A stretch of 64,000 nt of DNA from a virus. Where the stretch lies: IMG/VR virus record IMGVR_UViG_3300029887_000017. One strand, written 5' to 3'. The notes beneath the pieces were generated by a model. It had not been told where the DNA came from, ran no database searches, and saw only the letters and a list, made by a program, of their open reading frames with translations. The translations under genes and the position numbers were made by a program. Positions 4,094 to 51,642 of the stretch are shown in pieces (positions within the stretch are counted from its first letter, which is position 1; every line of letters begins with the position of its first letter).

Positions 4094-4673
4094 ATCTACA
4101 TTAATATGCATCAGTAGACATTTTCCTTACAACTTCAATTCAAAATGATTAAAACAACAATAATATCTACTCCAGTAGACATTTTCCTTGTAGTTTCAAC
4201 ACATTGATGTACGATCTGCTCTTTTAGAATCTACACCAGTAGACATTCTGTTCGCAGTTTTAACATGTATTAGGTCTGGAGCTTTGGTTTCATCTTCATC
4301 AGTAGACATTTCTCTTACAGTTTCAACCAAACAACGAAAGGAGAAACGCATGATGAATCTACCCTAGTAGACATTTTTCCTTCGATATTATCTCCACAAA
4401 ATCTACGCTCGCAGACGTTCTCTCTCTGCAATATTAACATGAAAAATCTTTGCCACATCCTTGCCGGATCTACATCATTTATTCTGAAATGAATTACCGA
4501 AGAAACTCATTGCATCTACCCCAGTAGACATTTCGCCAACAGTTCAAATGAAGACAGCGCTGGACAATATTTCATATCTACCTCAGTAGACGTTTCCCTT
4601 TATGTTCTAACAGTATTGATTGGCGCTAAAGTGTTATATCTACACCAGTAGACATTCCACTTACAGTTTCAAT
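4094..4673 (-). CRISPR. CRISPR array A (type V-A, ~10 degenerate repeat units)
   Basis: units every 44-67 bp; minus-strand reading ends in ..AATGTCTACT-NNN-GTAGAT (Cas12a crRNA handle); distal units (4401, 4468) strongly degenerate. Confidence 0.7.
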
Positions 4674-4800
4674 CCTAACATTGTGCACCTGCACAATGTT
4701 TCACGGTTTAACTGTAATGTTTTTTATATATTGCGTTCTACTTCAAAAAATATTTTTCTCTACAGTATTAATTACGGATAGGACCTGTTTTTTTTTGAAA
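4674..4800 (-). promoter_or_regulatory. CRISPR leader copy 1 with perfect palindrome AACATTGTGCACCTGCACAATGTT (4677-4700)
   Basis: sequence CCTAACATTGTGCACCTGCACAA..TTTCACGG shared with 6195-6265 and 7028-7154, always on the promoter-proximal side of an array. Confidence 0.6.
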
Positions 4801-4807
4801 AACGAAA

Positions 4808-5542
4808 TTATTTGCCCACATACAACGGGAAATTAACTGTTTCTAATATATTTTTATATTTATCTCCATCCGTGTATAACGCAAATGTAGCATCTTTCCC
4901 ATTTTCATATTCTTCCCTTATAGTTGTAAGCGAAACTTCATCTTTATATTTTGCTACATCAAAAGGAGAACAATTGGTATCATACTTATTAAGATATGAA
5001 AGCATATCATCATCAATTATAATCGGACTATCAAACACTTTCTCAAAAGCTTTGCATAATGAATATAATTCTTCTTGAGAGAACGTTATGTAACATGTGG
5101 AAAAGAAAAACTCAAACAAAGATGGTTTATTAGTAACTCCATAACGCAGATTATCCAAAATTAATTTAATATAATCTTCTTTAGAAGATATAATATTTTT
5201 ATCCAAAGCATATTTAATCTCGTCCGCGGTAAGCGGAAGGTAGGTGTAATTATATACGGCCTTAATTTTATGTATAGTAAGCGGAATAAACGCTACTATA
5301 TTTATAATTAATACTATTGTACATAATGCAAGGACCAATACAATTGGGAAGGCTGCTGCTGCAACTAATCCGTTTATTATATCACTGCTACCTCCCATAA
5401 AATTAAATATTCCAGCTCTTCCTAATAATATAAACACAATCATATAAATTATAATAGAAGTTATTAAAATAGTTCCAAGGAATTCATTAACTAATGTACT
5501 CCAAAACGATTTTTTCTTATTCATGTTTTTAAGTTTATTCAT
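4808..5542 (-). CDS. membrane protein (2 N-terminal TM helices + ~170 aa cytoplasmic domain), nested between CRISPR arrays
   Basis: 244-aa ORF, AAGGAGG RBS 5545-5551 (minus) derived from a repeat remnant; same strand as cas12a and arrays. Confidence 0.7.
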   Translation of the reverse strand: MNKLKNMNKKKSFWSTLVNEFLGTILITSIIIYMIVFILLGRAGIFNFMGGSSDIINGLVAAAAFPIVLVLALCTIVLIINIVAFIPLTIHKIKAVYNYTYLPLTADEIKYALDKNIISSKEDYIKLILDNLRYGVTNKPSLFEFFFSTCYITFSQEELYSLCKAFEKVFDSPIIIDDDMLSYLNKYDTNCSPFDVAKYKDEVSLTTIREEYENGKDATFALYTDGDKYKNILETVNFPLYVGK

Positions 5543-5587
5543 ACCTCCTTACAGTTTCAAGTAAATATTGCTACCCGTGATCTACAC

Positions 5588-6194
5588 GTCTACCTCAGTA
5601 GACATTTTCTTTACAATTTCAACAAATAAAAATCATACTCTCTGTGAACAAATCTACCTCAGTAGACATTTCGCTCACAGTTTCAACATGCAAATGCTTG
5701 AGCTACATATGCAAATCTACTTTAGTAGACATTCCGCTCGCAGCTCCAACATAATTATTCAAATGGTTCATATACTGACAATCTACATAAGTAGACATTC
5801 TACTCATAGTTTAAATGATTCCACATTTACTTGATTCTTAATCTATATCAGTAGACATTCCGCTTACAGTTTCAAACAGTCTTTCAATCTCTGAGCCTAG
5901 TGCTATATCTACCTCAGTAGACATTTTTATTACAGTTTCAACATGTTTGTGGGCATTCGACAGAAAGTGATCTACGCAAGTAGACATTCCGCTTACAGTT
6001 TTAACATAGGAAAGGAAGGTATTCAAAATGATATCTACACCAGTAGACATTTTCCTTACAGCTTCAACACGCAAAGAACCATTCGTCTGCAACTCATCTA
6101 CACCAGTAGACATTCCGCTTACAGTATCAACCAAACATGAAGAATAGATGGTTAAAGGATCTACCTTAGTAGACATTCTGCTCACAGTATCAAT
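5588..6194 (-). CRISPR. CRISPR array B1 (10 repeat units, 36 nt, spacers 24-30 nt)
   Basis: units at 5588, 5652, 5715, 5781, 5841, 5907, 5970, 6033, 6096, 6159; partial repeat remnant 5551-5587. Confidence 0.8.
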
Positions 6195-6265
6195 CCTAAC
6201 ATTACGCACTTGTGCAACATTTCACGGCTGAGCTGTAGGCTTTTTATCATCATCTTATACTGTTG
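6195..6265 (-). promoter_or_regulatory. degenerate CRISPR leader copy between arrays B1 and B2
   Basis: CCTAACATTACGCACTTGTGCAACATTTCACGGCTGAGCTGTAGG resembles leaders at 4674 and 7028. Confidence 0.5.
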
Positions 6266-7027
6266 ATCTGATCTGTTTTAATAGATATTTCGCTAACAGC
6301 TTCAATTGAGTTATCTATATATCTATATCAGTAAATATTTTATTTGGTATGCTGGGAATAATCTACATCAGTAGACATTTTGCCTACAGTTTCAGCTTTA
6401 TTCAAATTAAAAAAATAAGAGAAAATCTACCTCAGTAGACATTTTCTTTATAATTTCAACTCACAGTGTCCATATGATTATCATAGTATCTACGCAAGTA
6501 GACATTCCGTTTACAGTTTCAACCTGAAACTCTTACAAGTCCCATTAATATCTACCCTAGTAGACATTCCGCTTACAGTTTCAACTTTTTGACATATTGC
6601 TGCCTCTGATTTAAATCTACCCTAGTAGACATTCCGCTTACAGTTTCAACATTATTACTGTGATTTTGATATGGAAATCTACCCTAGTAGACATTCCGCT
6701 TACAGTTTCAACAATGACTGTGATATCATCTTGACTATCATCTACCCTAGTAGACATTTCGCTTACAGTTTCGACTAGAGGATGTTTTTTCACCCATTGC
6801 AGATCTACCCCAGTAGACATTCCGCTTACAGTTTCAACCGTAATTGATATGTGTGTTAACGCATGATCTACCTTAGTAGACATTTCGCTCACAGTATCAA
6901 CAAAGTATGCAATCGAGTACATAGATGAAATCTACCTTAGTAGACATTTCGCTCACAGTATCAACAGCGAGCATTGTCATAATATATTTTTATCTACCTT
7001 AGTAGACATTTCGCTCACAGTATCAAC
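6266..7027 (-). CRISPR. CRISPR array B2 (13 units; consensus minus-strand repeat GTTGAAACTGTAAGCGGAATGTCTACTAGGGTAGAT)
   Basis: well-conserved 36-nt repeats at 6361, 6425, 6488, 6550, 6615, 6677, 6740, 6803, 6866, 6930, 6992; degenerate distal units at 6266, 6321; spacers 26-28 nt. Confidence 0.9.
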
Positions 7028-7154
7028 CCTAACATTGTGCACCTGCACAACATTTCACGGCTGAAACTGTAAGTTTTTACGTATTATGCCCTTAATTTGT
7101 TATCTTATACCATTGAACTGCAAGCATTTCTTTTTATTAAAGCTGCGGTCTGCA
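7028..7154 (-). promoter_or_regulatory. CRISPR leader (between cas12a stop and first repeat) with palindrome 7031-7054
   Basis: AT-rich 127 bp; shared leader sequence; candidate -10 CATAAT. Confidence 0.6.
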
Positions 7155-10100
7155 CTAACTATTCGTTTGCTGCCTCTTCTGCATAAAATTGAACCAGTCT
7201 TCATTGCTAAGTCTGCTAAATTTGAACTTCTCGCCCTCGGCCCAATTGTTCTTCACCTGAAGCACATTGTATAGGCCTTTCATCGCAATGCCATATGCAT
7301 CGTTAGCATCTGCTTCGACAGGAAGCGATTTGTCAGCGGCGTCCGTGTCAAAGAACTTTCCTGACGCGTTTAATATCGGAGATACAAACTTATCATATTC
7401 TCTGTCTTTCGATTCACATAAGCTGTTTCTCATCTGCACTGTGAGTTTGAACATCTCAAATATGTGAGAGGAGAGTGCATAGTCAATAATTTCCTGTTTG
7501 ATGTCATGACCATCTGCCCAGTTTATATCTGTGGCGGCAAGAGTTTTCTTGATTTCCTCTGTTATGTCGATAACGACTTCGCTAACGAACTTTCTGTTTT
7601 GGAACGTCTTTTTAACTCTGGTGCCGTAAGTGTATGCACACCATTTTGTTTTTGCACAGGTCTCGTATATCTCAAAATTGTCGTAATCAAACTCAAATGC
7701 AAACAGGTCTTTCTCGGCATCATATCTGATGCAGTCAAATCTGCCAATGAAATCCGTCATGGCTTTTTCAGATGATATATCCTTGAACTTGAATAAGGTT
7801 ACAAATCCTGTTGTCGGATCAACTCTTGATGTATATGCGGCTGGCACATAGAGAATGCATCCACACTGGCTTCCGACATTTTTAAGGCTTTCCGGAATGT
7901 ATGTAAGCTGATAACCATTGGCAATTCCGCCTGCTTCCAGAGGTTTTCTGTCCTTGAATGTCAGATAGTTGAGAGTCTTAATGAGGCTTGTCTCAAACTG
8001 CTGGTAAACCCCGCGCTCAATCTTTGAACGCTTTTCCTTAAACCTGCTGTTTAAGTCTTCCATGACAACAATACCATTGTATTTTATTACAAGCTCGGCA
8101 ACTTCATGAACTGCCTGTGACAAATAGCCTTTCTTTAAGTCAGCTATTTTTACACCCTGTTTCCAGTTCTGCCTTGCCAGTTTTCTCATGATTTCAACCT
8201 GCTTGAGCTTTGCCTGATAGTCCACATTGTTAATGATGTTAAGGGATTTCTGCTCAACAATGTTTCCGTCAGTATCAATTACTGATACATACAGCAAATT
8301 TCTCTCCCCACGGTCAATTCCAATGATGTAAGTGTCCTTTGTCTGAGCAATATACTTAAGAGCCATTTCGTTTACATTTACACGTCTGTTTTCCGCCTTG
8401 TAGTTTAGTGACACCGGCATGTTGATAAAGAACTCATCCTCTGTATATCTGCGGTCTTTTATGATGTCATAAGGGGCAGTGCGGTGGTCTACAATATCCT
8501 TGTACTTAAGCGCCTCTGCTGAAAGAGGTGTTCCTGAATTGTTGTAGTAGCCGTAAAGCTCCATGTAAACATCATCAGGCACGCATTTTCTGACGGTAAT
8601 AATGTTTCCATTTTCATCCATTTCCTGTGCGTTGTAGGTTTTACTGACAAGAATGGAACCTTTCTTGTGAACGACAGGAGTTTTTATGCTCTTTGGCCTG
8701 AAGAATACTTCCGTGCCGCCGCATAACTTGATAACAGGATCTGCAACATTTTCATCACTGAATAAACTGCGTAGAATAGCAGTGTGCTTACTTGGTTTTC
8801 CGAAGCTCTTTTCTGAAAAGTCTTTATTGTATATCTGAAACAGATACAGCTGGCCATTTTCCTGCAGACTGTCAATATCATCACTTCCAATGTATGTCCA
8901 GTTCATGTAATATCCCTGTTCGGCAACTTCCTTGTAGAACTCACCAATGTCATTGTAACTTTCGGTATCTGAGAACTTAAAATTAAAGCAGTCCCAGTCA
9001 GTATACAGTGCGAGACAGTGCTTAAAGTAATCAATCAGTTTGTGACAGTAGTCTATGTCAAAGTTTTTTGACGTCTTAAGATGTCTGCCTTTCTTGTAAT
9101 CAGAAAGCAGCTCATCTGTCAGTCCGTAAACCGGTACAGCCTTGCTTGAGCTTATAAACATGTGAGGCAGCATCTTGTTAGGTCCGGTTAAAAGAGAGTA
9201 GACCATTTTCTTGTAATCACCGTCCTGTATCGTATCATGTCCTTTGATAATACTTTTTGCAGGTTTGTTTTTGGCATTGAACACTCCAAGATAAAATTTG
9301 TCATCTTTTGCAAGAAGAATGGCATTGTTGGTGAATTCCTTGCTTTCACTCCAACCTGATGCAAATGAAGACGTGCCAAAATACAATCCGAACTTGTCTG
9401 TGTTGTACGGTTTCTTGGTTACGTAATTTCTTGTACGGTTGTATAAGGATACAATAGAATGGATCTCATCGTTTATATCCTCAAGTTCTGTGTAAAAATC
9501 CGTATCCTTGTCAACAGGCTCATCTGTCTTGAACTTTGCACACCAGCGAAAGATGTCCATAAACGGTTCAATTGCTTCCTTAAGAACAGCGATTTCAGTC
9601 TCATTTTCTGCGAGCGGAATGCCGGAATTCATAGTTAACGGATTTGCTTTGTAATCAGCGACAATATCTGAAATGCTTCTTATAAGCGACCTTGTGCTTG
9701 CAGCTTTGTCCGGACATAAGTTATACTTATCAACAAGTTTATCAATTTCACCAAGGCTTATTAATTCAGTGTTTTTAGCCATGGATGCAGCCTTTTTCTC
9801 TTTGGTCTTGCCTTTGCCCGGGAGAGTGTCAATGTAACTCATGGTAAGAGCAGTATTGATTACACTGAAATCCCTGTACAGTGTCTGGGATATATTTGTA
9901 AAGTGCTTCTTTGAAATGTATATCTTATCAAGGTCATAGCTATCAGCATTCTTACCGAGCATCTGCAGTCTTTCAATAACAGATTTGGTTCTGACATTGT
10001 TAAGAAAATCATTAACGGCAGCATATACATCTTCATCGCAATTGAATTTTGCAGGTACATCATACAGTGATTCTTCGATGCAGAGTATCTGCTTGTGAAG

Positions 10101-10940
10101 ATGTCTTAACTTGTATGGGCTTAATTTTTCCTTTGTCGCCTGACAGTAGAGGTTCATGAATTTATTAATTCCACCTACGACATAGTTGTAGAAAGAAATA
10201 TCATCCTGTGACACAAAATGATTGAAGGCAAAATGATCGAAGTTATACGAAAAGATATTTCTAATATCAGCTCCACCAGCAGCTTCCTCAATCTTCTCAA
10301 TCATTTCAATCTCGTAATCAAATTTGTTTGCAATGTTTTTGTATATGCGGATGTTGTCAAAATGGATTTTTGCATTGTCATCAACAATTCTGTAGCATGC
10401 AGATGATGAAATCTTTTCCTTTGAAAAGCAGTTCTCCCTGTTCGTAAAGAATGCTGAAAATGATGTCATGAAGCCGTTGAACATCTTGACAACCTGCATT
10501 TTCTCCTCTTTTTCCTCAGCGGAGTAGGCTCCGTTGTGCAGGATAAACTCTGGCAGGATGGAAGCGGTAATTTCTGCCTTGAACATCTTTTTGTATCTGT
10601 CATCGCTCTCAAAAATGTCATGGATGGCTTTTCTCATATCATCCTGTGCTTTTTCAAGAGCTTCCTTATTATCCTTTGTCTCCAGATACTTTTTCATTTC
10701 TGTAAAGAGCGGCTTAAAGTCAAGTTCATGAACTTTTACAAGGTTCTCATTTAAGAAGCTTCTGTAAAAGTCGTTTAAAATATTCTTAAGCTCCTGACTC
10801 ATCATATTTCTTTCCTGATCAGCTTCAATAACGCCGTGTTCTTTTATATATTTTGCCGTAATTTCTGTTGGAATCAGTCTGTTGCACAATGTTTTTGTGA
10901 CAGATGAAAGATTTGTAAAATCGTTAAAACCTGTATTCAT
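7155..10940 (-). CDS. cas12a: Cas12a (Cpf1) type V-A effector nuclease, 1261 aa
   Basis: IGIDRGERNLLY (RuvC-I), VVMEDLNSRFK (RuvC-II), QMRNS, DADANDAYGIAMKGL (RuvC-III), FQIYNKDFS and FFTNRENCFSKE blocks matching Lachnospiraceae Cas12a; start set to ATG 10938-10940 behind AAGGAGA RBS. Confidence 0.95.
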   Translation of the reverse strand: MNTGFNDFTNLSSVTKTLCNRLIPTEITAKYIKEHGVIEADQERNMMSQELKNILNDFYRSFLNENLVKVHELDFKPLFTEMKKYLETKDNKEALEKAQDDMRKAIHDIFESDDRYKKMFKAEITASILPEFILHNGAYSAEEKEEKMQVVKMFNGFMTSFSAFFTNRENCFSKEKISSSACYRIVDDNAKIHFDNIRIYKNIANKFDYEIEMIEKIEEAAGGADIRNIFSYNFDHFAFNHFVSQDDISFYNYVVGGINKFMNLYCQATKEKLSPYKLRHLHKQILCIEESLYDVPAKFNCDEDVYAAVNDFLNNVRTKSVIERLQMLGKNADSYDLDKIYISKKHFTNISQTLYRDFSVINTALTMSYIDTLPGKGKTKEKKAASMAKNTELISLGEIDKLVDKYNLCPDKAASTRSLIRSISDIVADYKANPLTMNSGIPLAENETEIAVLKEAIEPFMDIFRWCAKFKTDEPVDKDTDFYTELEDINDEIHSIVSLYNRTRNYVTKKPYNTDKFGLYFGTSSFASGWSESKEFTNNAILLAKDDKFYLGVFNAKNKPAKSIIKGHDTIQDGDYKKMVYSLLTGPNKMLPHMFISSSKAVPVYGLTDELLSDYKKGRHLKTSKNFDIDYCHKLIDYFKHCLALYTDWDCFNFKFSDTESYNDIGEFYKEVAEQGYYMNWTYIGSDDIDSLQENGQLYLFQIYNKDFSEKSFGKPSKHTAILRSLFSDENVADPVIKLCGGTEVFFRPKSIKTPVVHKKGSILVSKTYNAQEMDENGNIITVRKCVPDDVYMELYGYYNNSGTPLSAEALKYKDIVDHRTAPYDIIKDRRYTEDEFFINMPVSLNYKAENRRVNVNEMALKYIAQTKDTYIIGIDRGERNLLYVSVIDTDGNIVEQKSLNIINNVDYQAKLKQVEIMRKLARQNWKQGVKIADLKKGYLSQAVHEVAELVIKYNGIVVMEDLNSRFKEKRSKIERGVYQQFETSLIKTLNYLTFKDRKPLEAGGIANGYQLTYIPESLKNVGSQCGCILYVPAAYTSRVDPTTGFVTLFKFKDISSEKAMTDFIGRFDCIRYDAEKDLFAFEFDYDNFEIYETCAKTKWCAYTYGTRVKKTFQNRKFVSEVVIDITEEIKKTLAATDINWADGHDIKQEIIDYALSSHIFEMFKLTVQMRNSLCESKDREYDKFVSPILNASGKFFDTDAADKSLPVEADANDAYGIAMKGLYNVLQVKNNWAEGEKFKFSRLSNEDWFNFMQKRQQTNS

Positions 10941-10985
10941 CTCAATTTTCTCCTTTTTTCGCTTAAAATTCTCTCTGTATATCAT

Positions 10986-11030
10986 GAGTATGTTAGAAAT
11001 TATGCCGAGTTATGGCTTTCTATATAAGTT
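10986..11030 (-). promoter_or_regulatory. promoter cassette driving cas12a (TATATAGAAAGCC..N24..TCTAACATACT)
   Basis: reverse-oriented copy of the element-wide promoter motif ~45 nt upstream of the cas12a RBS. Confidence 0.55.
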
Positions 11031-13176: not shown

Positions 13177-13306
13177 AACTTATATAGAAACACATATCAC
13201 GCAGAAAAACTATCATACTTATAGTGAACGCGAAAGACATCTGAAAAAGATGTAATCAGGCAAATATGATTGTATTTACTATGAGAAGTAAAGAAAGGCA
13301 TTATTT

Positions 13307-13588: not shown

Positions 13589-14129
13589 GGAAGCGGATTT
13601 TAAAAAGGAAAATATTTAAAGGAATGACAAAAGATTCCTCCAAAAATTTTTGAAAAGCGGAAGCCGGGATGGTGCATGCTGTCCCGGTATTCGTTTTTAA
13701 ATGCAAAATATTGAAAATTGGCAGAAAAATCTATCATACTTATATTAAGCAGGGAAGACATTATTTGGATGTCATCATGCTATTTCCTCAACTTTTCGAA
13801 GCCGGGTTCTGATCGCCCGGCTTCTTTTTTTTTGCGAAAAAATAAATCATACTTATGAGGGAAGATGAACGCTGCATGAATTTCCTGGGCCAAAGAACCC
13901 AAAAGGCAGCAGCAGAAATGGAAGGGATGCCCGTTGATGCCGGGCAGGCTTTGGCTGGCCTGTCAGCTGTCGGTCTGTGCACAGCCACTTAATGGTGCAT
14001 GAACAACAGCAAAGCTATAAAGCATCCGTGGCGCAAAAGCATTTCGCGAAGCGGCTGCGCCGTGCTGTTCAGCAGCAGAGGTCATGTGCTCTTTTGTGGG
14101 TATATGGCCTTTGTTTTTGGAATTTTGGA

Positions 14130-14266
14130 CAAACGTATAGCCGGAGGCTTGCGTCCCCGGCCTGTAAAAAACAAAAAATGGAGTTGCGTTAACAGAAATG
14201 ATCATGTTTCTGTCTTGCACATATAGTATGTTAGAAATGATTCTGAGAAATGGCTTTCCATATAAG
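14130..14266. repeat. ~135-bp direct repeat copy 1 (GC hairpin + reverse-oriented promoter core)
   Basis: near-identical to 15200-15332. Confidence 0.7.
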
Positions 14267-15150: not shown

Positions 15151-15199
15151 AACATGCAGAACATACAGGGGCCGGATTAGTTCCGGTCTCCTTTTTTTG

Positions 15200-15332
15200 C
15201 AAACGTATAGCCGGAGGCTTGCGTCCCCGGCTCATATTTAAAAAGAAAATTGGAGTTGTGTATTAACAGATTTCCTCTGTCTTACACATATAGTATGTTA
15301 GAAATGATTTTGAGAAATGGCTTTCCATATAA
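15200..15332. repeat. ~135-bp direct repeat copy 2
   Basis: near-identical to 14130-14266. Confidence 0.7.
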
Positions 15333-15469
15333 GAACATGTAGCCATTCACCCACGCCTATGCAAATATTATAGACGTTCTACTCTAGCTGGTATGATAAA
15401 AAGACAAAGGCGGCTTTTGTAAAATCTAACATACTTTCTATATAAAAAAAGAAAGGTGGAGATAAAAAC

Positions 15470-15652
15470 ATGAATGAGTGCTATTTCTGCGGTGCATCAG
15501 GAAATACGGCGCATATTGCGTCAATTAAAGTGCGCGGCAGAAGAGACGGTGTGCGCATACAAAAGAACATAAAGATATGCGATGCGTGCCGTATCTGGAG
15601 GAACAAAGAAGACATAAGAGAAGCAGTCTCGGCAATGGAAGACTGGGATTAA
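15470..15652 (+). CDS. zinc-ribbon small protein (60 aa)
   Basis: CYFCG..CDACR; promoter cassette upstream. Confidence 0.5.
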   Translation: MNECYFCGASGNTAHIASIKVRGRRDGVRIQKNIKICDACRIWRNKEDIREAVSAMEDWD

Positions 15653-16164
15653 GGACTAATTGTTAAGTAATTAAAAACATGGAAATATGTATGCAAACAT
15701 AGACAAAAGTGGACACATTAAGTCTTTTGTTTATGGCTTAACAATAGGTTTCAAGCCTAAGTGACTGCTACTATCAAAAGATATGTTGCAGATATGAACT
15801 ACATTAAGTAGTAAGGTAAAGACGCACCTTTAGATGTAATCTTCAGTCTGAAGCTCTGTGAGTGCAAACCAAGAAACAATGCTAATGTCCTGCATTGATA
15901 ACAGGGAAACACATGTCCTCTACTTGATATTGGCACGAAGAAAAATTCTCCGAAAGGAAGGTGTCAGAAATGACAAATTACGCTTTTGTATTGGATGCTA
16001 ATAATAAACAATTAACGCCAACAAAAGTCCAACAAAACATTGTAAGAAGGTTAATGCAAGAAAATATAAAGTACTTTGGAAATGTTCTAAAATTTAATGG
16101 TTAGATAATGTGAGCTAGACACATTTATCTACATTTAAACACAAATAATTATTTCATAAGGAGG
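15653..16164. repeat. 0.5-kb direct repeat copy 1
   Basis: ~95% identical to 53470-53984. Confidence 0.85.
15970..16104 (+). CDS. small ORF inside repeat (44 aa, [28 protein letters not shown]..)
   Basis: AGGAAGG RBS; N-terminus resembles RRXRR/PLMP-type N-termini of HNH/IscB proteins. Confidence 0.4.
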   Translation: MTNYAFVLDANNKQLTPTKVQQNIVRRLMQENIKYFGNVLKFNG

Positions 16165-16171
16165 AACAAAA

Positions 16172-16429
16172 ATGGAAACAAACAGGAGAAATGAAATTAT
16201 TAAGCTTCATGACGCAATCTTAGACAGGCTTGGAATCAAGCCTGACAAGTATGAAAGAGAGGATTCGCTGATGTCAGCCATCGAGGATATTGACAACGGT
16301 CAGGACGTGCAAGCGAGTCTTGTGGACGCCATAAAGTGCGTGTACGGCAGGGAACTGACAGACATAATGTATAAATCTGTCTACGCAAACCTGAAAGGTC
16401 CTAAAGCATGGATCCAAGAGAGAGCATGA
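16172..16429 (+). CDS. hypothetical protein (85 aa)
   Basis: ORF behind cataaggaggaacaaaaATG. Confidence 0.55.
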   Translation: METNRRNEIIKLHDAILDRLGIKPDKYEREDSLMSAIEDIDNGQDVQASLVDAIKCVYGRELTDIMYKSVYANLKGPKAWIQERA

Positions 16430-18020: not shown

Positions 18021-18029
18021 GCCAATAAT

Positions 18030-18062
18030 GTAAAAACTATCATACTTTCCATATAAAAATAA
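18030..18062 (+). promoter_or_regulatory. promoter cassette (AAAAACTATCATACTTTCCATATAAAAAT)
   Basis: motif family member. Confidence 0.5.
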
Positions 18063-18083
18063 AGAAAAATGGAGGAAAAACAA

Positions 18084-18917
18084 ATGAACAACGAAGAGAT
18101 AATAAAAGGATTTAAAGTGTTTAGACCTGATTGGACATGTTCACCTAACGGCAACACGAAACAGTACACTTGCCCCGGAAAATTTGAGGAAGAAGGGGAG
18201 CTTGATATTTGCAATCACGGTATGCACTTCTGTCAGACGGCTGCCGACTGTTTTAACTATTACAGTTTCAACAGTAAAAACAAGGTAGCGGAAATCATTG
18301 CCTATGGTGATGTGAGGACAGACGGATACGAGTTATGCACTAATAAGTTAGAGATCGTGCGTGAAATCCCGTGGGATGAAGTGTTGCGGATTGTCAACAT
18401 TGGAAAAAAATGTACGGGTCTCTGTAACGCCGGGGATAATAACACCGGGAACAGGAACACTGGAAACAGCAACACCGGAAACTGGAACACCGGGGACAGG
18501 AACACTGGAAACTGCAACACCGGAAACTGCAACACCGGGGACTGGAACACCGGGGACTGGAACAAATCGTCTTTTAATACTGGTTGTTTTAACACAGAAG
18601 AACAGAAGATTATACTGTTTAATAAGCCATCAAATATGACATATCGTGAATGGATGGATTCAGATGCAAAATATTTACTGAATCAGATACCAAAGAATGT
18701 TGTTGAATGGGTATCTGAAGAAGATATGACTGATGAAGAAAAAGCAGCATATCCAACCTATGAAACAACAAGCGGTTATCTCAAAGTGCTTGATGAATCT
18801 AAATGTGGTCAGTTGTGGTGGAACGGGTTATCTGATTGTGATAAACAGATAATTAAAAGTATTCCAAATTTTGATCCAGACATTTTTTATGAATGTACTG
18901 GAATTAAAGTCAATTAG
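18084..18917 (+). CDS. protein with 8 tandem NTGNx pentapeptide-like repeats (277 aa)
   Basis: NTGNRNTGNSNTGNWNTGDRNTGNCNTGNCNTGDWNTGDWN at 18421-18570. Confidence 0.6.
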   Translation: MNNEEIIKGFKVFRPDWTCSPNGNTKQYTCPGKFEEEGELDICNHGMHFCQTAADCFNYYSFNSKNKVAEIIAYGDVRTDGYELCTNKLEIVREIPWDEVLRIVNIGKKCTGLCNAGDNNTGNRNTGNSNTGNWNTGDRNTGNCNTGNCNTGDWNTGDWNKSSFNTGCFNTEEQKIILFNKPSNMTYREWMDSDAKYLLNQIPKNVVEWVSEEDMTDEEKAAYPTYETTSGYLKVLDESKCGQLWWNGLSDCDKQIIKSIPNFDPDIFYECTGIKVN

Positions 18918-18962: not shown

Positions 18963-21083
18963 ATGAACAACGAAAACGTAAAAATCATGGAGAAACTTAT
19001 CAACAAGCTGAATGAGGCATCAGATGCCTACTATAATGGCAAAGACGAAATCATGTCGAATTATGAGTGGGATACAATGTTTGATGAGCTTGCACAGCTT
19101 GAGAAAGAGACAGGGATTATTCTGCCGGATTCCCCAACACAAAAAGTTGGTGCAGATGAGATTGGCGGAAATGGCCTTAAGAAAGTCAAACATGAGTTTC
19201 CGGCACTGTCGCTTGATAAGACAAAGGATATTAACGAATTTCCAGAAGTCTTTTCTGAGTCTTGGGATGGAGTCTGTAACGTCATGTGGAAACTTGACGG
19301 TAGTACTATAGTACTGGAATACAATAATGGCCGTCTGGTACAGTCTGTTACTCGCGGAAATGGTGAGGTAGGAAGTGATATAACTCATCAGGCACCATAC
19401 ATCGAAGGTATTCCAATGACCATTGGTTTTAAAGGAAAATTAGTGGTCAGAGGTGAAGCTCTCATGACTTATTCAGAATTTGAAAGAATTAATTCAAATC
19501 TGGAAGAGGATGAAGAGGAGTATTCAAATCCTCGTAATCTTGCAAATTCAACAATAACAATCAAAGAACCAGGTCTTAGAGGCAGAAAGGTTATGTTTAA
19601 AGCTTTTAAGCTTGTGCATATAGAGCCTGCTGCTGATGACAAAATTGAGGTACCTGAAACTTTCTTTGGTGCATTGACACTGCTTGAGAGACTGGGATTT
19701 GGTGTTGTTGAACATGAGCTTGCAAGAGCTTATTCAAGCAATCCAGATGTAGATTCAGATTTACCGGATCAGATTATCAATGTTATGAATAGTTTCTCTG
19801 ATAGAGTAGAGACACTGGATTATCCTGTAGACGGACTTGTTGTTGCATCGGATGATTACAAAACCGCTGATGCGCTTCCTGTCACAGGACATCATCCTAA
19901 CAGGCTCACAGGCTTTGCTTTCAAGTGGGCTGACGAGTGTGTTGAAACCACTTTGAGAGAAATTGAATGGTCTCCTAGCAGAACAGGACGTATTAATCCT
20001 GTTGCAGTCTTTGATCCGGTACAGCTTGAGGGAACTACAGTTACAAGAGCGAGCGTACATAATGTATCAATCGTTAAAAAACTGCGTCTGAGAGTTGGTG
20101 ATAAGATTTCAGTGTTCAAAAGTAATAAAATAATTCCACAGGTCGATAAAAACATGACACCGGGAGATGAGCTTACTTACGCTGAGTCTCATGCATGTAC
20201 ATGTCCGGTGTGTGGCATGGAAACATCGCCAATGATTACACATTCTGGTGACAGAGACGTTGAGGTAGAGATGTGTACAAATCCTAACTGTGCTGTAAAG
20301 CAGGTTAAGAAATTCGTACATTTCTGCGAGAGAGACTGCATGGATATTATCGGTCTGTCAGAGAAAACCCTTGAGAAATTTATTGAAAAGGGCTTCATTA
20401 AGCAGCTTGCAGATCTGTACAGACTTGATACTTTTGAGCGTGACATTGCTGCAATGGATGGTTTTGGACAGAAGTCATATGACAATATTTGGAAATCAAT
20501 TCAGAGAAGCCGTAAGACAACATTTGTACCGTTTATCCATGCGCTTGGTATTCCTATGGTAGGAAAAGGACAGGCAAAATTGTTTGACAAGGCCTACAAA
20601 GGTGATGTCAGGAAGTTTTTCAACGATGTCTATAATCGTAAATGTTTTACAGGCATAGACGGAATTGGAGAAAAGATTGAGCTCAGTCTTTGGGACTGGG
20701 GCAGCAGATATCTTGGATGGATTCCATTTGAGAAGAATTTACTGGATGAGATGTGGAGAATCTCAAACAATGCCGAAGTTTATGACTTGCTCAGATGGAT
20801 TGATGTCGAGGTTCCAGCAGAAGCAGATGTACCTGCTAGTAAAAATATTCTTTCCGGCAAGACATTTGTTATCACCGGCTCAGTTAACCATTTCAAGAAC
20901 CGTGCAGAATTGCAGACGAAAATTGAAGAACTGGGTGGCAAAGCAACCGGCTCTGTAACTAAGAAAACCAGCTATCTTATTAATAATGATGTAGAAAGTA
21001 CATCAGGAAAGAATAAGAAAGCTAAGGAACTTGGCGTGCCTATCATTTCTGAGGATGAATTCCTTGAGATGATAGGAGAATAA
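18963..21083 (+). CDS. ligA: NAD-dependent DNA ligase LigA (706 aa)
   Basis: KLDG adenylation motif, OB fold, Cys4 zinc finger (CTCPVCG..CTNPNC), HhH region and C-terminal BRCT. Confidence 0.9.
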   Translation: MNNENVKIMEKLINKLNEASDAYYNGKDEIMSNYEWDTMFDELAQLEKETGIILPDSPTQKVGADEIGGNGLKKVKHEFPALSLDKTKDINEFPEVFSESWDGVCNVMWKLDGSTIVLEYNNGRLVQSVTRGNGEVGSDITHQAPYIEGIPMTIGFKGKLVVRGEALMTYSEFERINSNLEEDEEEYSNPRNLANSTITIKEPGLRGRKVMFKAFKLVHIEPAADDKIEVPETFFGALTLLERLGFGVVEHELARAYSSNPDVDSDLPDQIINVMNSFSDRVETLDYPVDGLVVASDDYKTADALPVTGHHPNRLTGFAFKWADECVETTLREIEWSPSRTGRINPVAVFDPVQLEGTTVTRASVHNVSIVKKLRLRVGDKISVFKSNKIIPQVDKNMTPGDELTYAESHACTCPVCGMETSPMITHSGDRDVEVEMCTNPNCAVKQVKKFVHFCERDCMDIIGLSEKTLEKFIEKGFIKQLADLYRLDTFERDIAAMDGFGQKSYDNIWKSIQRSRKTTFVPFIHALGIPMVGKGQAKLFDKAYKGDVRKFFNDVYNRKCFTGIDGIGEKIELSLWDWGSRYLGWIPFEKNLLDEMWRISNNAEVYDLLRWIDVEVPAEADVPASKNILSGKTFVITGSVNHFKNRAELQTKIEELGGKATGSVTKKTSYLINNDVESTSGKNKKAKELGVPIISEDEFLEMIGE

Positions 21084-28014: not shown

Positions 28015-28075
28015 GATGCAATTTTCTACTTTCTAACATACTTTCCATATAAAAAGAAAAAAGGAGGAACTAAAT

Positions 28076-28264
28076 ATGGACAAAAAGGAACTGTTGGAGC
28101 TGATAGAAGAGAAAATAGATGATGTTTTTCTTGAATATCAGAAAAAAAATGACATTAAAAGCGGGGACATATCCCCGGAGCAGGCTTTAAGGCTTGATGA
28201 ACTGCAGAACGAGCTTGCAGATCTGGTGATGCATGTAGGAAGTAGACAGGAGGAACATTCATGA
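28076..28264 (+). CDS. hypothetical protein (62 aa)
   Basis: ORF behind promoter cassette. Confidence 0.5.
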   Translation: MDKKELLELIEEKIDDVFLEYQKKNDIKSGDISPEQALRLDELQNELADLVMHVGSRQEEHS

Positions 28265-34140: not shown

Positions 34141-34203
34141 TTTTTATATGGAAAGCCATATGCCGGTTTACGCAAAATCTAACATACTTTCCATATAAAA
34201 AAG
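34141..34203 (+). promoter_or_regulatory. archetypal promoter cassette: TTTTTATATGGAAAGCC-N26-TCTAACATAC-TTTCCATATAAAAAAG (15-bp inverted arms)
   Basis: follows terminator 34118-34146, precedes RBS/ATG 34225. Confidence 0.55.
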
Positions 34204-34224
34204 AAAAATGGAGGTAAATTGAAT

Positions 34225-34710
34225 ATGGATGTTTTTTTAAGAAACATAACAACGGATGAGGACGTAGAAGTTTCACTTCCAATGGACTCAGGAAAATTAA
34301 AGGAACTGACAGGTAAAGATGAGTGGATAATCGCTGACTCTCCGGTTGGAGAAGAGCTTACAAGCATATTAATGCTTAATGAGCTTGTTAAACGTTTTGG
34401 TGAGGAAAATCTTATGGTTCTTGCTGAGGCATTTCTTCTAAGCGAGATAGAAGAAAAAGAACCGGATGACTTTGTCATCATTGATTTCGATAATGAAACC
34501 GCCTGTTACAACGACGGCAACGGCTTCATATTTACCGACTGGGAAAAAGGATTTGTCCTTCATGACCTTGGGTATGTGGATTTTCCATTTAAGTACACAG
34601 ATGAAATGGAAGGATACGTAAAGTTTGAGCAGCTCTGGTATACAGCAGAAAGCTCAGGCTGGAATGCGGTTATCATTAACGGCAGACCTTATCTTGTCTG
34701 CAAGAATTAA
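34225..34710 (+). CDS. hypothetical protein (161 aa)
   Basis: ORF, ATG preferred over upstream TTG. Confidence 0.55.
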   Translation: MDVFLRNITTDEDVEVSLPMDSGKLKELTGKDEWIIADSPVGEELTSILMLNELVKRFGEENLMVLAEAFLLSEIEEKEPDDFVIIDFDNETACYNDGNGFIFTDWEKGFVLHDLGYVDFPFKYTDEMEGYVKFEQLWYTAESSGWNAVIINGRPYLVCKN

Positions 34711-36908: not shown

Positions 36909-36966
36909 TTTTTTATATGGAAAGACATGGTTTTCACAAAATCTATCATACTTTCCATATAAAAAA
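36909..36966 (+). promoter_or_regulatory. promoter cassette (TTTTTTATATGGAAAGACA..ATCTATCATACTTTCCATATAAAAAAG)
   Basis: motif family member. Confidence 0.55.
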
Positions 36967-36986
36967 GAAAAAAGGAGGAAAACAAA

Positions 36987-37253
36987 ATGAGTATGAGTAA
37001 TATTGTTGAGGAATGGAACAACGCACGCATCAGGTATCAAAACAGATACTACGGTGCATGTAAAAAACTTAAGACAGGGGAAACAAATACTGATAATCAC
37101 GGAGCAATGCTTGAGATGAGCTATGTGCTTATTTCAATATTCGGCCTTTCTCCGAAAGAAGTTGATGAGGTTGAGAAAAACGGCGGATTCACAAACAAAG
37201 ATCTAAAGAAGATAGAGGAGGAGACAGAGAAGTATGTCAAGCTGTATCCATAA
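36987..37253 (+). CDS. hypothetical protein (88 aa)
   Basis: ORF behind aaaaggaggaaaacaaaATG. Confidence 0.55.
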   Translation: MSMSNIVEEWNNARIRYQNRYYGACKKLKTGETNTDNHGAMLEMSYVLISIFGLSPKEVDEVEKNGGFTNKDLKKIEEETEKYVKLYP

Positions 37254-37453: not shown

Positions 37454-37630
37454 ATGAGTAAACATATAATCACGTTAAGCGAGGTTATAGAACGTGCAAA
37501 CAACGGAGTGACAACCTTTTCAAGAAAGGACAATTCGCCAAGAGGCTGCAAGACAGTACCGGCGAGCGAAATCAAGGTTGGCGATGAGATAGTAATTGAT
37601 AATTATTTCACGTTGGTTGTTGAGGATTAA
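37454..37630 (+). CDS. small protein (58 aa)
   Basis: gaagggagaaaagtATG. Confidence 0.4.
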   Translation: MSKHIITLSEVIERANNGVTTFSRKDNSPRGCKTVPASEIKVGDEIVIDNYFTLVVED

Positions 37631-37654
37631 TATTAAGGAGGAACAAAAAATATT

Positions 37655-38617
37655 ATGGCAAATACATTTAACAGAGAAATCGCAAAAAAAGTCAGAACCG
37701 CACAGGAGGACATTAAAACAGATTTCTGTAAATACTGTGAAGAAAAGGCTTGTGACGGCTGTTTTATTGACGGCATGACAGAGGCATACACTCTAAGAGC
37801 GGAGATTGCTCTGGAACAGAAGAAATTGGATTTCGTTAATCATCTGTTATCAATGACAGGTGATGAAATTTACGACAAATATGGTTTTAAACGAGATGAG
37901 ACTATTATTAGCACCGCTGTTTTCCCGGATGGAATGCAGGCTGATATTAAGATTGTTATCTGTGATGGAGAAAATAAACCTTACACAGAGGCTGTTCTTT
38001 TTGACAAGAACGGTTTTCAGAAAGCGTATACCGATCCGGAAGATGAGTATACAGGTGACTGGGAACTTGAATATGACGATGTTAATTATGTTGTCACTGT
38101 TAAAGTAAAGGAACCAGTTGGTTACAGGTCTGATGGCATCTTTAACGATGGTTACAGGAATGCTGTAGATGTCATGACTCATGAGATTTTTGAGCTGTGG
38201 AACGCAGACATTCTTGACACTCTTGCTGATAGTATTTTAAAGGATACTGATATAGTAGAAGATGTGATACATCTGTCAGATGACCTGCAATTTTCAAAAA
38301 CTTCGTATTTTGCAGATATTTTTGAAGAAAAGGATAAGTCTGTTGCAGAAGAGAAAAAAAAGGCTTTTGTCAGAAGAATCCTTGATACGGTGAAAGAAAA
38401 GACTGGGAAAGACATCAAGTATGTTCTGTGGCTTTCTGACAGTGTTGATGATGTTATCGCCGAATACGAGCTTAATGACCCCATTACGGAGTTTGACGAG
38501 TATCCGACTGCGAACAGCATTGTTTTATCGGACATCGGCAGGGGCGGTAAGCTCTTTGGCTATGAGAAATTGCCTGCAGAAATAAGAATTGTTGACAGGC
38601 AGATGAAAACAATCTGA
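37655..38617 (+). CDS. hypothetical protein (320 aa)
   Basis: ORF behind attaaggaggaacaaaaaATATTATG. Confidence 0.6.
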   Translation: MANTFNREIAKKVRTAQEDIKTDFCKYCEEKACDGCFIDGMTEAYTLRAEIALEQKKLDFVNHLLSMTGDEIYDKYGFKRDETIISTAVFPDGMQADIKIVICDGENKPYTEAVLFDKNGFQKAYTDPEDEYTGDWELEYDDVNYVVTVKVKEPVGYRSDGIFNDGYRNAVDVMTHEIFELWNADILDTLADSILKDTDIVEDVIHLSDDLQFSKTSYFADIFEEKDKSVAEEKKKAFVRRILDTVKEKTGKDIKYVLWLSDSVDDVIAEYELNDPITEFDEYPTANSIVLSDIGRGGKLFGYEKLPAEIRIVDRQMKTI

Positions 38618-45577: not shown

Positions 45578-45616
45578 AATGGTTCGGGCAATTCTAAATG
45601 AAAGGAAAAGTTGTAC

Positions 45617-46054: not shown

Positions 46055-46146
46055 TGAAAGAGAGGAAAATCATTTTCAAATAATAAAAAAAGGTAGGTAT
46101 ATTGATTTGGTTGGTAACTATAATAGGTCAAGAAAGGAATTTGTAT

Positions 46147-46461: not shown

Positions 46462-46705
46462 AACAGAAATAAATAAAGATAGAGACGGCCAAAGAATGAT
46501 AAAGAGAGTCTGTAGCAGATTCTCTTTTTCTTTGCACTTAGGTAAAAACTTATATAGAAGCCTATAGAAGTTTCTTGAATCTATCATACTCTCAATGTAA
46601 GTAAATAGTTTACTGCAGATGTGAACATGGGTGACGGAACGATGATGAATCATAACTTAATAATAAGCAAAAATGCAATCGAGATTGTGAAAGGCGGTGG
46701 AATAG

Positions 46706-51632: not shown

Positions 51633-51642
51633 GGAGGTTTTT

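What the first reader, a model, noticed from the sequence alone, without database searches (positions are those of the whole stretch)
4094..11030. Minimal type V-A CRISPR-Cas12a module carried by a phage/MGE-like element with no adaptation genes
A full-length cas12a sits in inverted orientation inside a block of + strand phage-like genes (YopX, HNH, LigA, PUA/ASCH-like, many tiny ORFs). Seen directly: its RuvC I/II/III motifs are intact, and it is followed immediately by CRISPR arrays rather than by cas4-cas1-cas2. No cas1, cas2 or cas4 is present anywhere in the 64 kb. The gene is preceded by a reverse-oriented copy of the element's own conserved promoter cassette, so the effector appears to be expressed as one of the element's own genes rather than being a recent host fragment. 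Established: Lachnospiraceae Cas12a loci normally have cas12a-cas4-cas1-cas2-array. Inference: an adaptation-less effector plus arrays on a mobile element is a candidate phage- or plasmid-encoded CRISPR system used against competing elements.
Basis: partly seen in the sequence, partly recalled or inferred. Interest (0 to 1): 0.85.

Follow-up and report, generated by a model that had tools for sequence, protein, structure and literature searches.

The report
Adaptation-less Cas12a on gut megaplasmid
An intact Cas12a gene with three CRISPR arrays and no spacer-acquisition genes is really there, but its carrier is a roughly 277-kb conjugative megaplasmid common in human gut metagenomes and mislabelled as a phage, which makes it a new example of an already known kind of plasmid-borne CRISPR system.

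Summary
A 1261-aa cas12a lies at 7155-10940 on the minus strand, with the catalytic and RNA-processing motifs present. It sits behind a reverse copy of the element's own multi-copy promoter and is followed by three arrays, each with its own leader (about 30 repeats in all). No cas1, cas2 or cas4 was found in the window or in about 110 kb of further DNA from the same element.

The carrier is not a phage. Proteins of the window occur on 225-301 kb contigs, two of them 277,041 and 277,043 bp. A GenBank "Bacteriophage sp." scaffold collinear with the window runs on into a VirD4-type coupling protein, a VirB4/TraC-like ATPase, a large NlpC/P60 protein and topoisomerase III. Nearby are a ParM-like actin and a VirB11/CpaF-type ATPase. 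No terminase, portal or capsid gene was seen.

The system looks functional: dN/dS is 0.05-0.15 and the crRNA handle is invariant, while the 5' half of the repeats drifts. Identical leader-proximal repeats with lineage-specific spacers suggest acquisition in trans. None of 65 spacers found a target, so the "anti-competitor" role remains an inference.

Precedents include Butyrivibrio pCY360, the published "subtype VIII" Cas12a loci and surveys of plasmid CRISPR. I rate it a new member of a known kind.

The parts
10987..11027 (-). Copy of the element's multi-copy promoter cassette (TTATATAGAAAGC, 17 nt, TCTAACATACT), oriented to drive cas12a
   Evidence: Repeat family D8; sequence read; motif positions and chance expectation (21 copies of the core in the window against about 0.1 expected per strand).
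10950..10956 (-). Ribosome-binding site AAAGGAG, 9 nt upstream of the ATG at 10940
   Evidence: The same promoter, then AAGGAGG, then ATG layout is seen in the plus-strand copies.
7155..10940 (-). cas12a, 1261 aa, with RuvC, Nuc and RNase motifs present
   Evidence: Family matches; motifs; 26 solved Cas12a sequences matched; this exact protein is a called gene on 5 public contigs; dN/dS 0.05-0.15.
7028..7154 (-). Leader of array 1, with a conserved core at 7028-7078 that includes the near-palindrome TTGTGCAGGTGCACAA next to the first repeat, and TATAAGAT at 7102-7109
   Evidence: 87-nt family D5, three copies at 77-79% identity; sequences; positions. A similar TTGTGCA..CACA motif precedes the first repeat in the bacterial V-A loci L002 and L003.
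6271..7027 (-). CRISPR array 1: 11 repeats of 36 nt with an intact hairpin, 10 spacers of 26-29 nt, and two decayed terminal repeats. The first three repeats are identical.
6195..6270 (-). Leader of array 2
5588..6194 (-). CRISPR array 2: 10 repeats and 9 spacers
4808..5542 (-). 244-aa ORF between arrays 2 and 3. The model shows two long N-terminal helices, probably membrane-spanning, and a helical C-terminal part. Function is unknown, and it is physically inside the locus but probably not a Cas component.
   Evidence: No Pfam, NCBIfam or PHROG match. More than 120 homologue clusters, on contigs of up to 577 kb. A paralogue sits about 127 kb away on the same 277-kb contig with no cas12a nearby. 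A homologue lies 3.3 kb from cas12a in a sister lineage. The AlphaFold model is unusable, pLDDT 45.
4674..4760 (-). Leader of array 3
4104..4673 (-). CRISPR array 3: about 8 recognisable repeats, partly decayed, with a 121-nt stretch holding repeat remnants

Best explanation
This is a working, interference-only type V-A CRISPR-Cas module carried by a roughly 277-kb conjugative megaplasmid of a human-gut Clostridia host.

Shown or read directly from the sequence:
- cas12a is placed behind one of the plasmid's own repeated promoters.
- The three arrays lie downstream in the same orientation, each with its own leader.

Inferred:
- The arrays are transcribed from their leaders and by read-through from cas12a.
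- Cas12a cuts the transcript itself upstream of the conserved AAUGUCUACU-loop-GUAGAU handle. Its RNase residues are present.
- It uses the 26-29-nt guides to cleave PAM-flanked double-stranded DNA with its RuvC/Nuc site.
- No acquisition genes are carried, so new spacers are added at the leader end by a host-encoded Cas4-Cas1-Cas2 acting in trans. Repeat-spacer cassettes are then kept for long periods and reshuffled by recombination between arrays and between plasmid lineages.
- The benefit to the plasmid is keeping rival plasmids or phages out of its host cell.
For: Effector identity and integrity.

Purifying selection: dN/dS is 0.05-0.15 among six element-borne alleles, with dS up to 0.77.

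Own-promoter wiring.

Constraint on the crRNA handle only:
- 26 of 30 repeats are distinct.
- Handle positions are 97-100% conserved; the 5' half is 57-97% conserved.
- Between lineages, the 5' half of shared repeats diverges at p = 0.07-0.18, of the same order as cas12a dS (0.12-0.24). The handle diverges at 0.04 or less.
- The hairpin folds as expected.

No adaptation genes:
- Window.
- 413 kb of loci from this element and its sister lineages.
- The 83-kb right-hand scaffold.
- Sister lineages also show cas12a plus array without cas1/2/4.

Signs of acquisition:
- The first three repeats of array 1 are identical.
- The leader-end spacer differs between lineages: the window has s01, L001 lacks it, and L155 has another.
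- One target was captured in both orientations, 21 of 21 nt.
- The leader motif is shared with bacterial V-A loci that do carry cas4-cas1-cas2.

Cassette reshuffling.

Carrier is a conjugative megaplasmid:
- Contigs of 225-301 kb, none over 1 Mb, with two assemblies of 277,041 and 277,043 bp.
- MT835474.1 is 99.5% identical to window 45575-64000 and continues into a T4SS coupling protein (PF02534, 207 bits), a VirB4/TraC-like ATPase, a 1386-aa NlpC/P60 protein and topoisomerase III.
- The coupling protein matches 655 plasmids, 497 of them conjugative.
- There is a CpaF/VirB11 ATPase, an ALP_N (ParM-like) protein and an S26 peptidase.

Published context: only 36% of plasmid CRISPR-Cas loci have adaptation modules, trans use is proposed, and plasmid spacers are biased towards other plasmids (PMC9071438).
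Against: - No spacer target was found. 65 distinct spacers gave nothing in 50,697 phage records or 72,556 plasmid records, in two exact IMG/VR scans, or in about 770 kb of the element and its relatives.
- The PAM is unknown.
- No expression data exist.
- No relaxase or replication initiator was identified.
- About 100 kb of the element was not inspected, so an adaptation module elsewhere on it is possible.
- The host, and any host V-A adaptation module with a compatible repeat, were not identified.
- Parts of arrays 1 and 3 are decayed.
- One micro-variant differs only by duplication of a unit, not by a new spacer.
- The catalytic-residue equivalences rest on motifs recalled from the Cas12a literature, not on a residue-by-residue structural alignment. 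The alignment was cut off.
Confidence: 0.62

Rival explanations
1. The carrier is a jumbo phage or phage-plasmid, and the Cas12a module serves the phage during infection or lysogeny against competing phages.
For: - IMG/VR lists a 92-kb fragment, and related contigs of 95-244 kb, as viral.
- GenBank holds three scaffolds of the element as 'Bacteriophage sp.' from fecal samples.
- The genes form long co-directional blocks of tiny unknown ORFs, with YopX, HNH and an NAD+ salvage cluster.
- A 672-aa protein has homologues only in Caulobacter and Brevundimonas jumbo phages among phage records.
Against: - No terminase, portal, capsid or tail gene was found in about 175 kb (63%) of the element by Pfam or PHROGs.
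- The element has a full set of conjugation ATPases and a ParM-like protein.
- There is a published precedent of gut 'huge phages' lacking TerL that turned out to be megaplasmids (PMC12934698).
- The GenBank records are flagged UNVERIFIED and carry no annotation.
Confidence: 0.1
2. The element does encode its own adaptation module (cas4-cas1-cas2, or another Cas1-Cas2) in the roughly 100 kb that could not be read, so the system is a split but autonomous V-A system.
For: - Leader-end polarity and identical leader-proximal repeats imply active acquisition.
- Only about 63% of the element was inspected.
Against: - Nothing was found in 175 kb.
- Three sister lineages, and the distantly related Butyrivibrio pCY360, also show cas12a plus array alone.
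- Loci of this kind are reported as integrase-free in MAGs (PMC12375029).
Confidence: 0.12
3. The module is a relic or has been re-purposed. The arrays are frozen and decaying, and Cas12a serves a non-immune role such as gene regulation, plasmid addiction or guide-directed recombination.
For: - Repeats are extremely heterogeneous, some units are decayed, and arrays are identical in contigs that share the same Cas12a.
- No targets were found.
- A recurrent spacer family resembles the reverse complement of the element's own promoter core.
Against: - Purifying selection is strong and the nuclease and RNase motifs are intact.
- The handle is conserved in 27 of 30 repeats.
- Leader-end spacers are lineage-specific.
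- The promoter-like spacers match the element's own promoters only in the PAM-distal part, with no T-rich PAM.
Confidence: 0.1
4. The region is chromosomal, either a genomic island or an integrated element, and not part of an independent replicon.
For: Relatives of the Cas12a at 51-52% identity are chromosomal. A related lineage occurs on a 577-kb contig.
Against: - Among 1493 index blocks, no contig exceeds 1 Mb, and sizes cluster at 225-301 kb.
- Two assemblies have equal length.
- No housekeeping genes were seen in any of the flanks.
- 577 kb is about twice 288 kb, which suggests a doubled assembly. This last point is my inference.
Confidence: 0.03

Closest known systems
cas12a locus of Butyrivibrio proteoclasticus B316 megaplasmid pCY360 (NC_014389.1, 361 kb)
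   Same: - cas12a with a short, heterogeneous array.
- No cas4, cas1 or cas2 next to it.
- Carried on a large Clostridia plasmid that has a VirD4-like coupling protein.
- A DUF5688 gene neighbours it, as in the sister lineages L154, L155 and L157.
   Different: - Cas12a is only 25% identical.
- The repeat hairpin differs (ACCTACT..AGGTAT).
- It has one array of about 4-5 units, against three arrays with about 30 units.
- Rumen rather than human gut.
'Subtype VIII' integrase-free Cas12a loci of Acutalibacteraceae / Ruminococcus_E MAGs (Nat Commun 2025, PMC12375029)
   Same: - Gut-derived Cas12a loci lacking Cas1, Cas2 and Cas4.
- About 4.2 kb from the cas12a start to the first spacer, against about 3.95 kb here.
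- The second catalytic motif is MEK/D, against MED here.
- The proteins were shown to be active nucleases.
   Different: - That paper assigns the loci to bacterial genomes and does not identify a mobile carrier.
- Sequence identity to this Cas12a could not be checked because no supplement is held.
Canonical type V-A loci (cas12a-cas4-cas1-cas2-array), for example L002 from GCA_963659315.1
   Same: - Cas12a domain architecture.
- 36-nt repeats ending in a UCUACU-loop-GUAGAU handle.
- A leader motif, TTGTGCA..CACA, next to the first repeat.
   Different: - 51% identity.
- An adaptation module is present.
- One array with nearly identical repeats (2 variants among 7), against 26 variants among 30 here.
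- Chromosomal context.
Plasmid-encoded CRISPR-Cas in general (Pinilla-Redondo et al., NAR 2022, PMC9071438) and phage-encoded systems without adaptation genes (Al-Shayeb et al., Nature 2020, PMC7162821)
   Same: Systems borne on mobile elements that usually lack cas1/cas2. They are proposed to borrow host adaptation machinery and to target competing mobile elements.
   Different: Type V-A is not singled out in either text. Targets are documented there and not here.
'Hodor' conjugative megaplasmids of the human gut (bioRxiv 2026, PMC12934698)
   Same: Human-gut elements over 200 kb, filed in viral databases but lacking TerL. They have a T4SS and ParM-type partitioning, and carry a CRISPR-Cas locus with a degenerate array.
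   Different: - Hodors have 45-47% G+C, against about 38% here.
- They are about 357 kb on average.
- They carry type I-C, not V-A.
- Their sortase and giant surface-protein module and Rep_3 were not seen here.

Membership tests
Type V-A CRISPR-Cas | Cas12a effector with REC, PI, RuvC and Nuc domains | tested here: met
   TIGR04330 scores 1126 bits over 1287 of 1288 model positions; five Cas12a Pfam domains are found; 26 solved Cas12a sequences match.
Type V-A CRISPR-Cas | Catalytic RuvC triad, Nuc arginine and pre-crRNA RNase residues present | tested here: met
   The motifs GIDRGE, MEDLN, ADAND, QMRNS and VVHKK...K / IIKDRRY are present. Their assignment to catalytic residues relies on motif knowledge from the literature (PMC12375029, and my own recall).
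Type V-A CRISPR-Cas | 36-nt repeats ending in a short hairpin handle (UCUACU-loop-GUAGAU), with spacers downstream of the handle | tested here: met
   30 repeats found; handle positions 97-100% conserved; the hairpin is predicted to fold.
Type V-A CRISPR-Cas | Adjacent adaptation module cas4-cas1-cas2 | tested here: not met
   No hit by tblastn or Pfam in the window or in about 110 kb more of the element. The positive control on L002 was recovered.
Type V-A CRISPR-Cas | T-rich 5' PAM and interference activity | not testable with these tools
   No protospacer was found, so no PAM can be inferred.
Conjugative plasmid | Type IV coupling protein and VirB4-family ATPase | tested here: met
   PF02534, TraG-D_C and TrwB_AAD_bind on a 913-aa protein; P-loop_TraG and TraC_F_IV on an 808-aa protein. 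The coupling protein has homologues on 655 plasmids, 497 of them conjugative.
Conjugative plasmid | Relaxase and replication initiator | tested here: inconclusive
   None was recognised among the large ORFs scanned. About 100 kb was not inspected.
Conjugative plasmid | Independent replicon of defined size, with a partition system | tested here: met
   Contigs of 225-301 kb, none over 1 Mb, and two assemblies of 277,041 and 277,043 bp. An ALP_N (ParM-like) gene is present. Circularity itself was not shown.
Tailed bacteriophage (Caudoviricetes) | Large terminase, portal and major capsid protein | tested here: not met
   No such Pfam or PHROG match in about 175 kb of the element. The remainder was not inspected.
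Hodor megaplasmids (groups G1 and G2) | 45-47% G+C, type I-C CRISPR-Cas, and a sortase plus giant surface-protein module | tested here: not met
   G+C is 0.30-0.43 per 2-kb window, about 0.38 overall, and 0.39 on MT835474. The CRISPR system is V-A. No sortase was seen in the parts inspected.

The most novel reading that the evidence does not exclude
The plasmid keeps a long-lived library of guide cassettes. The library is refreshed only when the plasmid resides in a host that supplies a compatible Cas4-Cas1-Cas2, and it is traded between arrays and plasmid lineages by recombination.

Part of this library, the recurrent CA(A/G)AGAGTATGATTTTT spacers, would be aimed at the multi-copy promoter consensus of sibling megaplasmids. 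One guide would then cut a rival replicon at many sites, while the plasmid's own promoters escape through seed and PAM differences. That would amount to a CRISPR-based incompatibility system among giant gut plasmids.
Probability: 0.12. Interest if true: 0.65.

Novelty: new member of a known kind. Interest (0 to 1): 0.4.

Why it matters
The finding adds a very prevalent human-gut example to the list of interference-only CRISPR systems carried on plasmids. One protein of the element is indexed in 1493 assembly blocks.

It also shows concretely what long life without a resident integrase does to a V-A array. The discarded 5' half of each repeat drifts at close to the synonymous rate. The crRNA handle stays fixed, and shared spacers change little, although that last figure is biased by how the cassettes were paired.

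It flags a giant conjugative plasmid that public virus catalogues list as a phage. That label matters for gut virome statistics and for host-range inference.

The Cas12a itself is a naturally streamlined effector with many natural handle-loop variants, which may interest tool developers.

Tried and rejected
1. Spacer targets.
- 44 and then 21 further distinct spacers were searched with blastn (distant mode) against INPHARED, and 44 against PLSDB. The only hit was another copy of the array, MT835946.1.
- Two exact IMG/VR scans, of a duplicated spacer and of the newest leader-end spacer, returned only the array itself or nothing.
- Self and sibling targeting was scanned with a Hamming search over about 770 kb.

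2. A false lead. The apparent 25-of-27 match of an L151 'spacer' to window 37793 is not a protospacer. Homology continues past 27 nt, because in that lineage the array abuts a truncated homologue of gene 37655-38617.

3. Phage hallmark hunt. I walked 27.5 kb to the left along the IMG/VR contig and ran PHROGs and Pfam on the large ORFs. No structural genes were found.

4. Tiling the element by scanning for its promoter in IMG/VR returned only the same contig.

5. A genome-collection scan with Cas12a peptide patterns found nothing. A scan for the hairpin variant gave mostly chance hits.

6. The 244-aa ORF has no family match in three libraries, and its AlphaFold model has pLDDT 45, too poor for a fold search.

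7. Rfam found nothing in the window at gathering score.

8. Bacterial V-A spacers from L002, L003 and others do not match the element.

9. Cluster look-ups gave no source names and no host. The supplement of PMC12375029 is not held, so identity with the published RbrCas12a and RspCas12a proteins could not be checked.


Full report
**What is in the window**

The minus strand between 4104 and 11027 holds a complete type V-A effector-plus-array module.

The long ORF at 7155-10985 matches the Cas12a equivalog TIGR04330 over its whole length, at 1126 bits. It also matches the five Cas12a Pfam domains REC1, REC2, PI, RuvC and NUC, and 26 solved Cas12a sequences. Close homologues and public gene calls start at the internal ATG at 10940, giving 1261 aa. 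That ATG is preceded by AAAGGAG.

The motifs that hold the catalytic residues are present:
- GIDRGE
- VVMEDLN
- EADANDA
- QMRNS
- the His/Lys residues of the pre-crRNA RNase site

Downstream of cas12a there are three arrays rather than one:
- A1: 7027-6271
- A2: 6194-5588
- A3: 4673-4104

Each array is preceded by a copy of the same leader. This is an 87-nt family at 77-79% identity that ends in CCGTGAAA..TTGTGCAGGTGCACAATGTTAGG. A 244-aa ORF lies between A2 and A3.

The window has no cas1, cas2 or cas4. tblastn with the Cas4, Cas1 and Cas2 of the nearest canonical locus gave nothing better than E = 0.4. That locus is L002, whose Cas12a is 51% identical. Pfam on 97 ORFs gave no such family.

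The 'own promoter' claim is correct. A cassette TTATATGGAAAGC-N-TCTAWCATACT-...AAGGAGG-ATG recurs throughout the window. Its core CTAWCATACT occurs 17 times on the plus strand and 4 times on the minus strand, against 0.1 expected per strand. One minus-strand copy sits at 10987-11027, exactly upstream of cas12a.

**What the carrier is**

At first the evidence pointed to a phage:
- A 92-kb IMG/VR contig carries a 97% identical cas12a and the same arrays.
- GenBank 'Bacteriophage sp.' scaffolds match the window.

However, 27.5 kb to the left of the window plus the window itself contain no terminase, portal, capsid or tail gene.

Exact look-ups of window proteins showed that the element lies on contigs of 225-301 kb. 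None exceeds 1 Mb, and two independent assemblies measure 277,041 and 277,043 bp.

The deciding piece was GenBank MT835474.1, an 83-kb record flagged UNVERIFIED. It is 99.5% identical to window 45575-64000 and continues 62 kb further. That stretch encodes:
- a CpaF/VirB11-type ATPase
- a ParM-like ALP_N protein
- an S26 signal peptidase
- two RecD2-like helicases
- an SMC-like ATPase
- a topoisomerase III-like protein
- a VirD4/TraG coupling protein (PF02534, 207 bits)
- a VirB4/TraC-like ATPase
- a 1386-aa protein ending in NlpC/P60

The coupling protein belongs to the 'VirD4-like, CD1115 family'. It has homologues on 655 PLSDB plasmids, 497 of them typed as conjugative. These include Butyrivibrio pCY360 and a 334-kb Subdoligranulum plasmid.

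The element is therefore best read as a conjugative megaplasmid, and the viral labels as misclassification. The same was recently reported for the 'Hodor' megaplasmids of the human gut (PMC12934698). This element is not a Hodor of group G1 or G2: its G+C is about 38-39% and its CRISPR system is V-A, not I-C.

The phage reading retains some support. The element has many tiny co-directional ORFs, YopX and HNH genes, and a protein shared only with jumbo phages among phage records. About 100 kb also remains unseen. I give the phage reading about 0.1.

**Is the module functional?**

Six element-borne cas12a alleles, from four different neighbourhoods, differ by dS of up to 0.77 but show dN/dS of only 0.05-0.15.

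The repeats are unusually diverse. 26 of 30 are distinct here, and 37 of 40 in the IMG/VR variant. The nearest bacterial loci show 2 variants among 7 repeats and 2 among 13.

The diversity is confined to the part of the repeat that Cas12a discards and to the hairpin loop. The handle AATGTCTACT...GTAGAT is 97-100% conserved and folds as expected.

For repeat-spacer cassettes shared between lineages, the rates are:
- 5' half of the repeat: p = 0.07-0.18, of the same order as the synonymous rate of cas12a (dS 0.12-0.24 for the same lineage pairs)
- handle: p of 0.04 or less

The low spacer divergence in that comparison is biased by the matching rule, so I do not rely on it.

This pattern is what selection for interference alone would produce. 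It argues against a decaying relic.

**How the arrays change**

- Contigs with an identical Cas12a carry identical arrays, or differ by duplication of one unit.
- The 97% variant and the sister lineages share many cassettes in a different order and in different arrays. In the sister lineages cas12a sits next to HD and TPR genes and there is one long array. The same spacer sometimes appears in two arrays. This indicates recombination.
- The first three repeats of A1 are identical to each other, and the leader-end spacer is lineage-specific. The window has s01, L001 lacks it, and L155 has another.
- One target sequence appears in opposite orientations in two lineages, 21 of 21 nt.

The last two points are signs of genuine integrase-type acquisition. 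No integrase was found in about 175 kb of the element or next to cas12a in any sister lineage.

The leader motif next to the first repeat resembles that of bacterial V-A loci that do carry cas4-cas1-cas2. Acquisition in trans by a host module is therefore the most economical reading. It is an inference. An adaptation module in the unseen 100 kb remains possible, at about 0.12.

**What the guides target**

Nothing was found. 65 distinct spacers from four lineages gave no protospacer in any of these searches:
- INPHARED
- PLSDB
- two exact IMG/VR scans
- the element and its relatives

One apparent hit was an artefact of flanking homology.

A recurrent spacer family resembles the reverse complement of the element's own promoter core. 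It matches the element's own promoters only in the PAM-distal part. This suggests promoters of sibling plasmids as targets, but that is speculation.

The 'anti-competitor' function thus rests on analogy with plasmid CRISPR surveys. In those, only 36% of loci have adaptation modules and spacers are biased towards other plasmids (PMC9071438). It also rests on analogy with phage systems (PMC7162821).

**Comparison with what is known**

- RefSeq already holds a Cas12a with a short heterogeneous array and no cas1/2/4 on the 361-kb Butyrivibrio proteoclasticus plasmid pCY360.
- RefSeq also holds a cas12a-cas2 locus on B. hungatei pNP144.
- A 2025 paper describes integrase-free 'subtype VIII' Cas12a loci in Ruminococcus_E / Acutalibacteraceae MAGs and shows that the proteins are active (PMC12375029). 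Those loci may well be this clade, which would also suggest the host. I could not check the sequences.

The finding is therefore a new member of a known kind. Three features are noteworthy but not categorically new:
- three leader-headed arrays
- a handle-only conservation pattern
- a very prevalent megaplasmid carrier that is catalogued as a phage

**Verdict**

- Observation: confirmed.
- Interpretation: partly supported. The carrier is a mobile element and the module has no adaptation genes of its own, but the carrier is not a phage and the targets are unproven.
- Interest: 0.4.

Noticed in passing
window, e.g. 13181-13220, 18029-18088, 28025-28084, 34145-34231, 36914-36995, 54157-54207; minus-strand copies at 10987-11027, 14209-14266, 15276-15333, 53217-53274, 62667-62707: An element-specific promoter-like cassette recurs about every 3-5 kb: TTATATGGAAAGC, then about 19 nt, then TCTAWCATACT, followed by TTCCATATAAAAA, an RBS and ATG. 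The core occurs 21 times against about 0.1 expected per strand. It does not resemble a standard sigma-70 promoter, which suggests a dedicated sigma factor or activator.
   Followed up: partly
window 14123-14266 and 15193-15333 (minus strand): Two near-identical small units. Each is a reverse promoter cassette followed about 40 nt later by the hairpin GCCGGGGACGCAAGCCTCCGGC and a T-run, with no convincing ORF. They may be small RNAs. Rfam finds nothing there.
   Followed up: partly
window 15652-16177 and 53469-53997; also the end of IMG/VR contig IMGVR_UViG_3300045988_182914 (L011 1-325): A 300-530-nt dispersed repeat at 95-98% identity. Public assemblies break at it, which explains why the element appears as 38-92-kb 'viral' fragments.
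   Followed up: partly
L004 1740-5779 (about 4-8 kb left of window position 1): An NAD+ salvage cluster: a NUDIX-NMN adenylyltransferase fusion, a nicotinamide phosphoribosyltransferase and an NAD synthetase. The window also has an NAD-dependent ligase at 18963-21083. The cluster is reminiscent of NAD+-reconstitution counter-defence genes.
   Followed up: no
GenBank MT835533.1, MT835474.1 and MT835946.1; IMG/VR UViG_3300045988_182914: Public records labelled 'Bacteriophage sp.' or viral are pieces of this conjugative megaplasmid. MT835474.1 carries the VirD4-like and VirB4-like genes.
   Followed up: yes
genome contig JAFZRZ010000071.1 (280,209 bp, Lachnospiraceae MAG, water-buffalo rumen); loci L036, L038, L046, L052, L055, L056, L089, L093, L094, L116, L122, L125: About 25 copies of the same Cas12a-type handle (AATGTCTACTNNNGTAGAT) are scattered singly or in pairs over the whole 280-kb contig rather than in one array. 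They may be solitary repeat units or mini-arrays on another giant element.
   Followed up: no
L151 10094-10330 versus window 37560-37793 (minus strand): In a sister lineage the terminal repeat of the array is fused to the 5' part of a homologue of gene 37655-38617. The array has therefore been inserted into, or recombined with, that gene. This mimicked a spacer hit.
   Followed up: yes
window spacer at 5651-5624; L001, L151 and L154 arrays: A spacer family, (TTGTT)CA(A/G)AGAGTATGATTTTT(A/T)TTT, recurs up to three times per array in all lineages. It resembles the reverse complement of the element's promoter core (..AAAAATCATACTCTCT..). The best match within the element is 18 of 21 nt at 58704-58724, with no T-rich PAM.
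   Followed up: partly
window 18441-18564, inside ORF 18069-18917: A 15-nt tandem repeat (8.3 copies) encodes NTG(N/D)x pentapeptide repeats in a DUF7666 protein. It is a likely contingency or variable region.
   Followed up: no
Separately, there is a 163-nt direct repeat (98%) at the right edge of the window.
   Followed up: no
L127 15980-16975 (about 6 kb right of the window end); L160 23730-24884: A metallo-beta-lactamase-fold protein with a faint Apyc1 (anti-Pycsar) signal, and a TnpB (IS605 OrfB) gene, both on the same plasmid.
   Followed up: no
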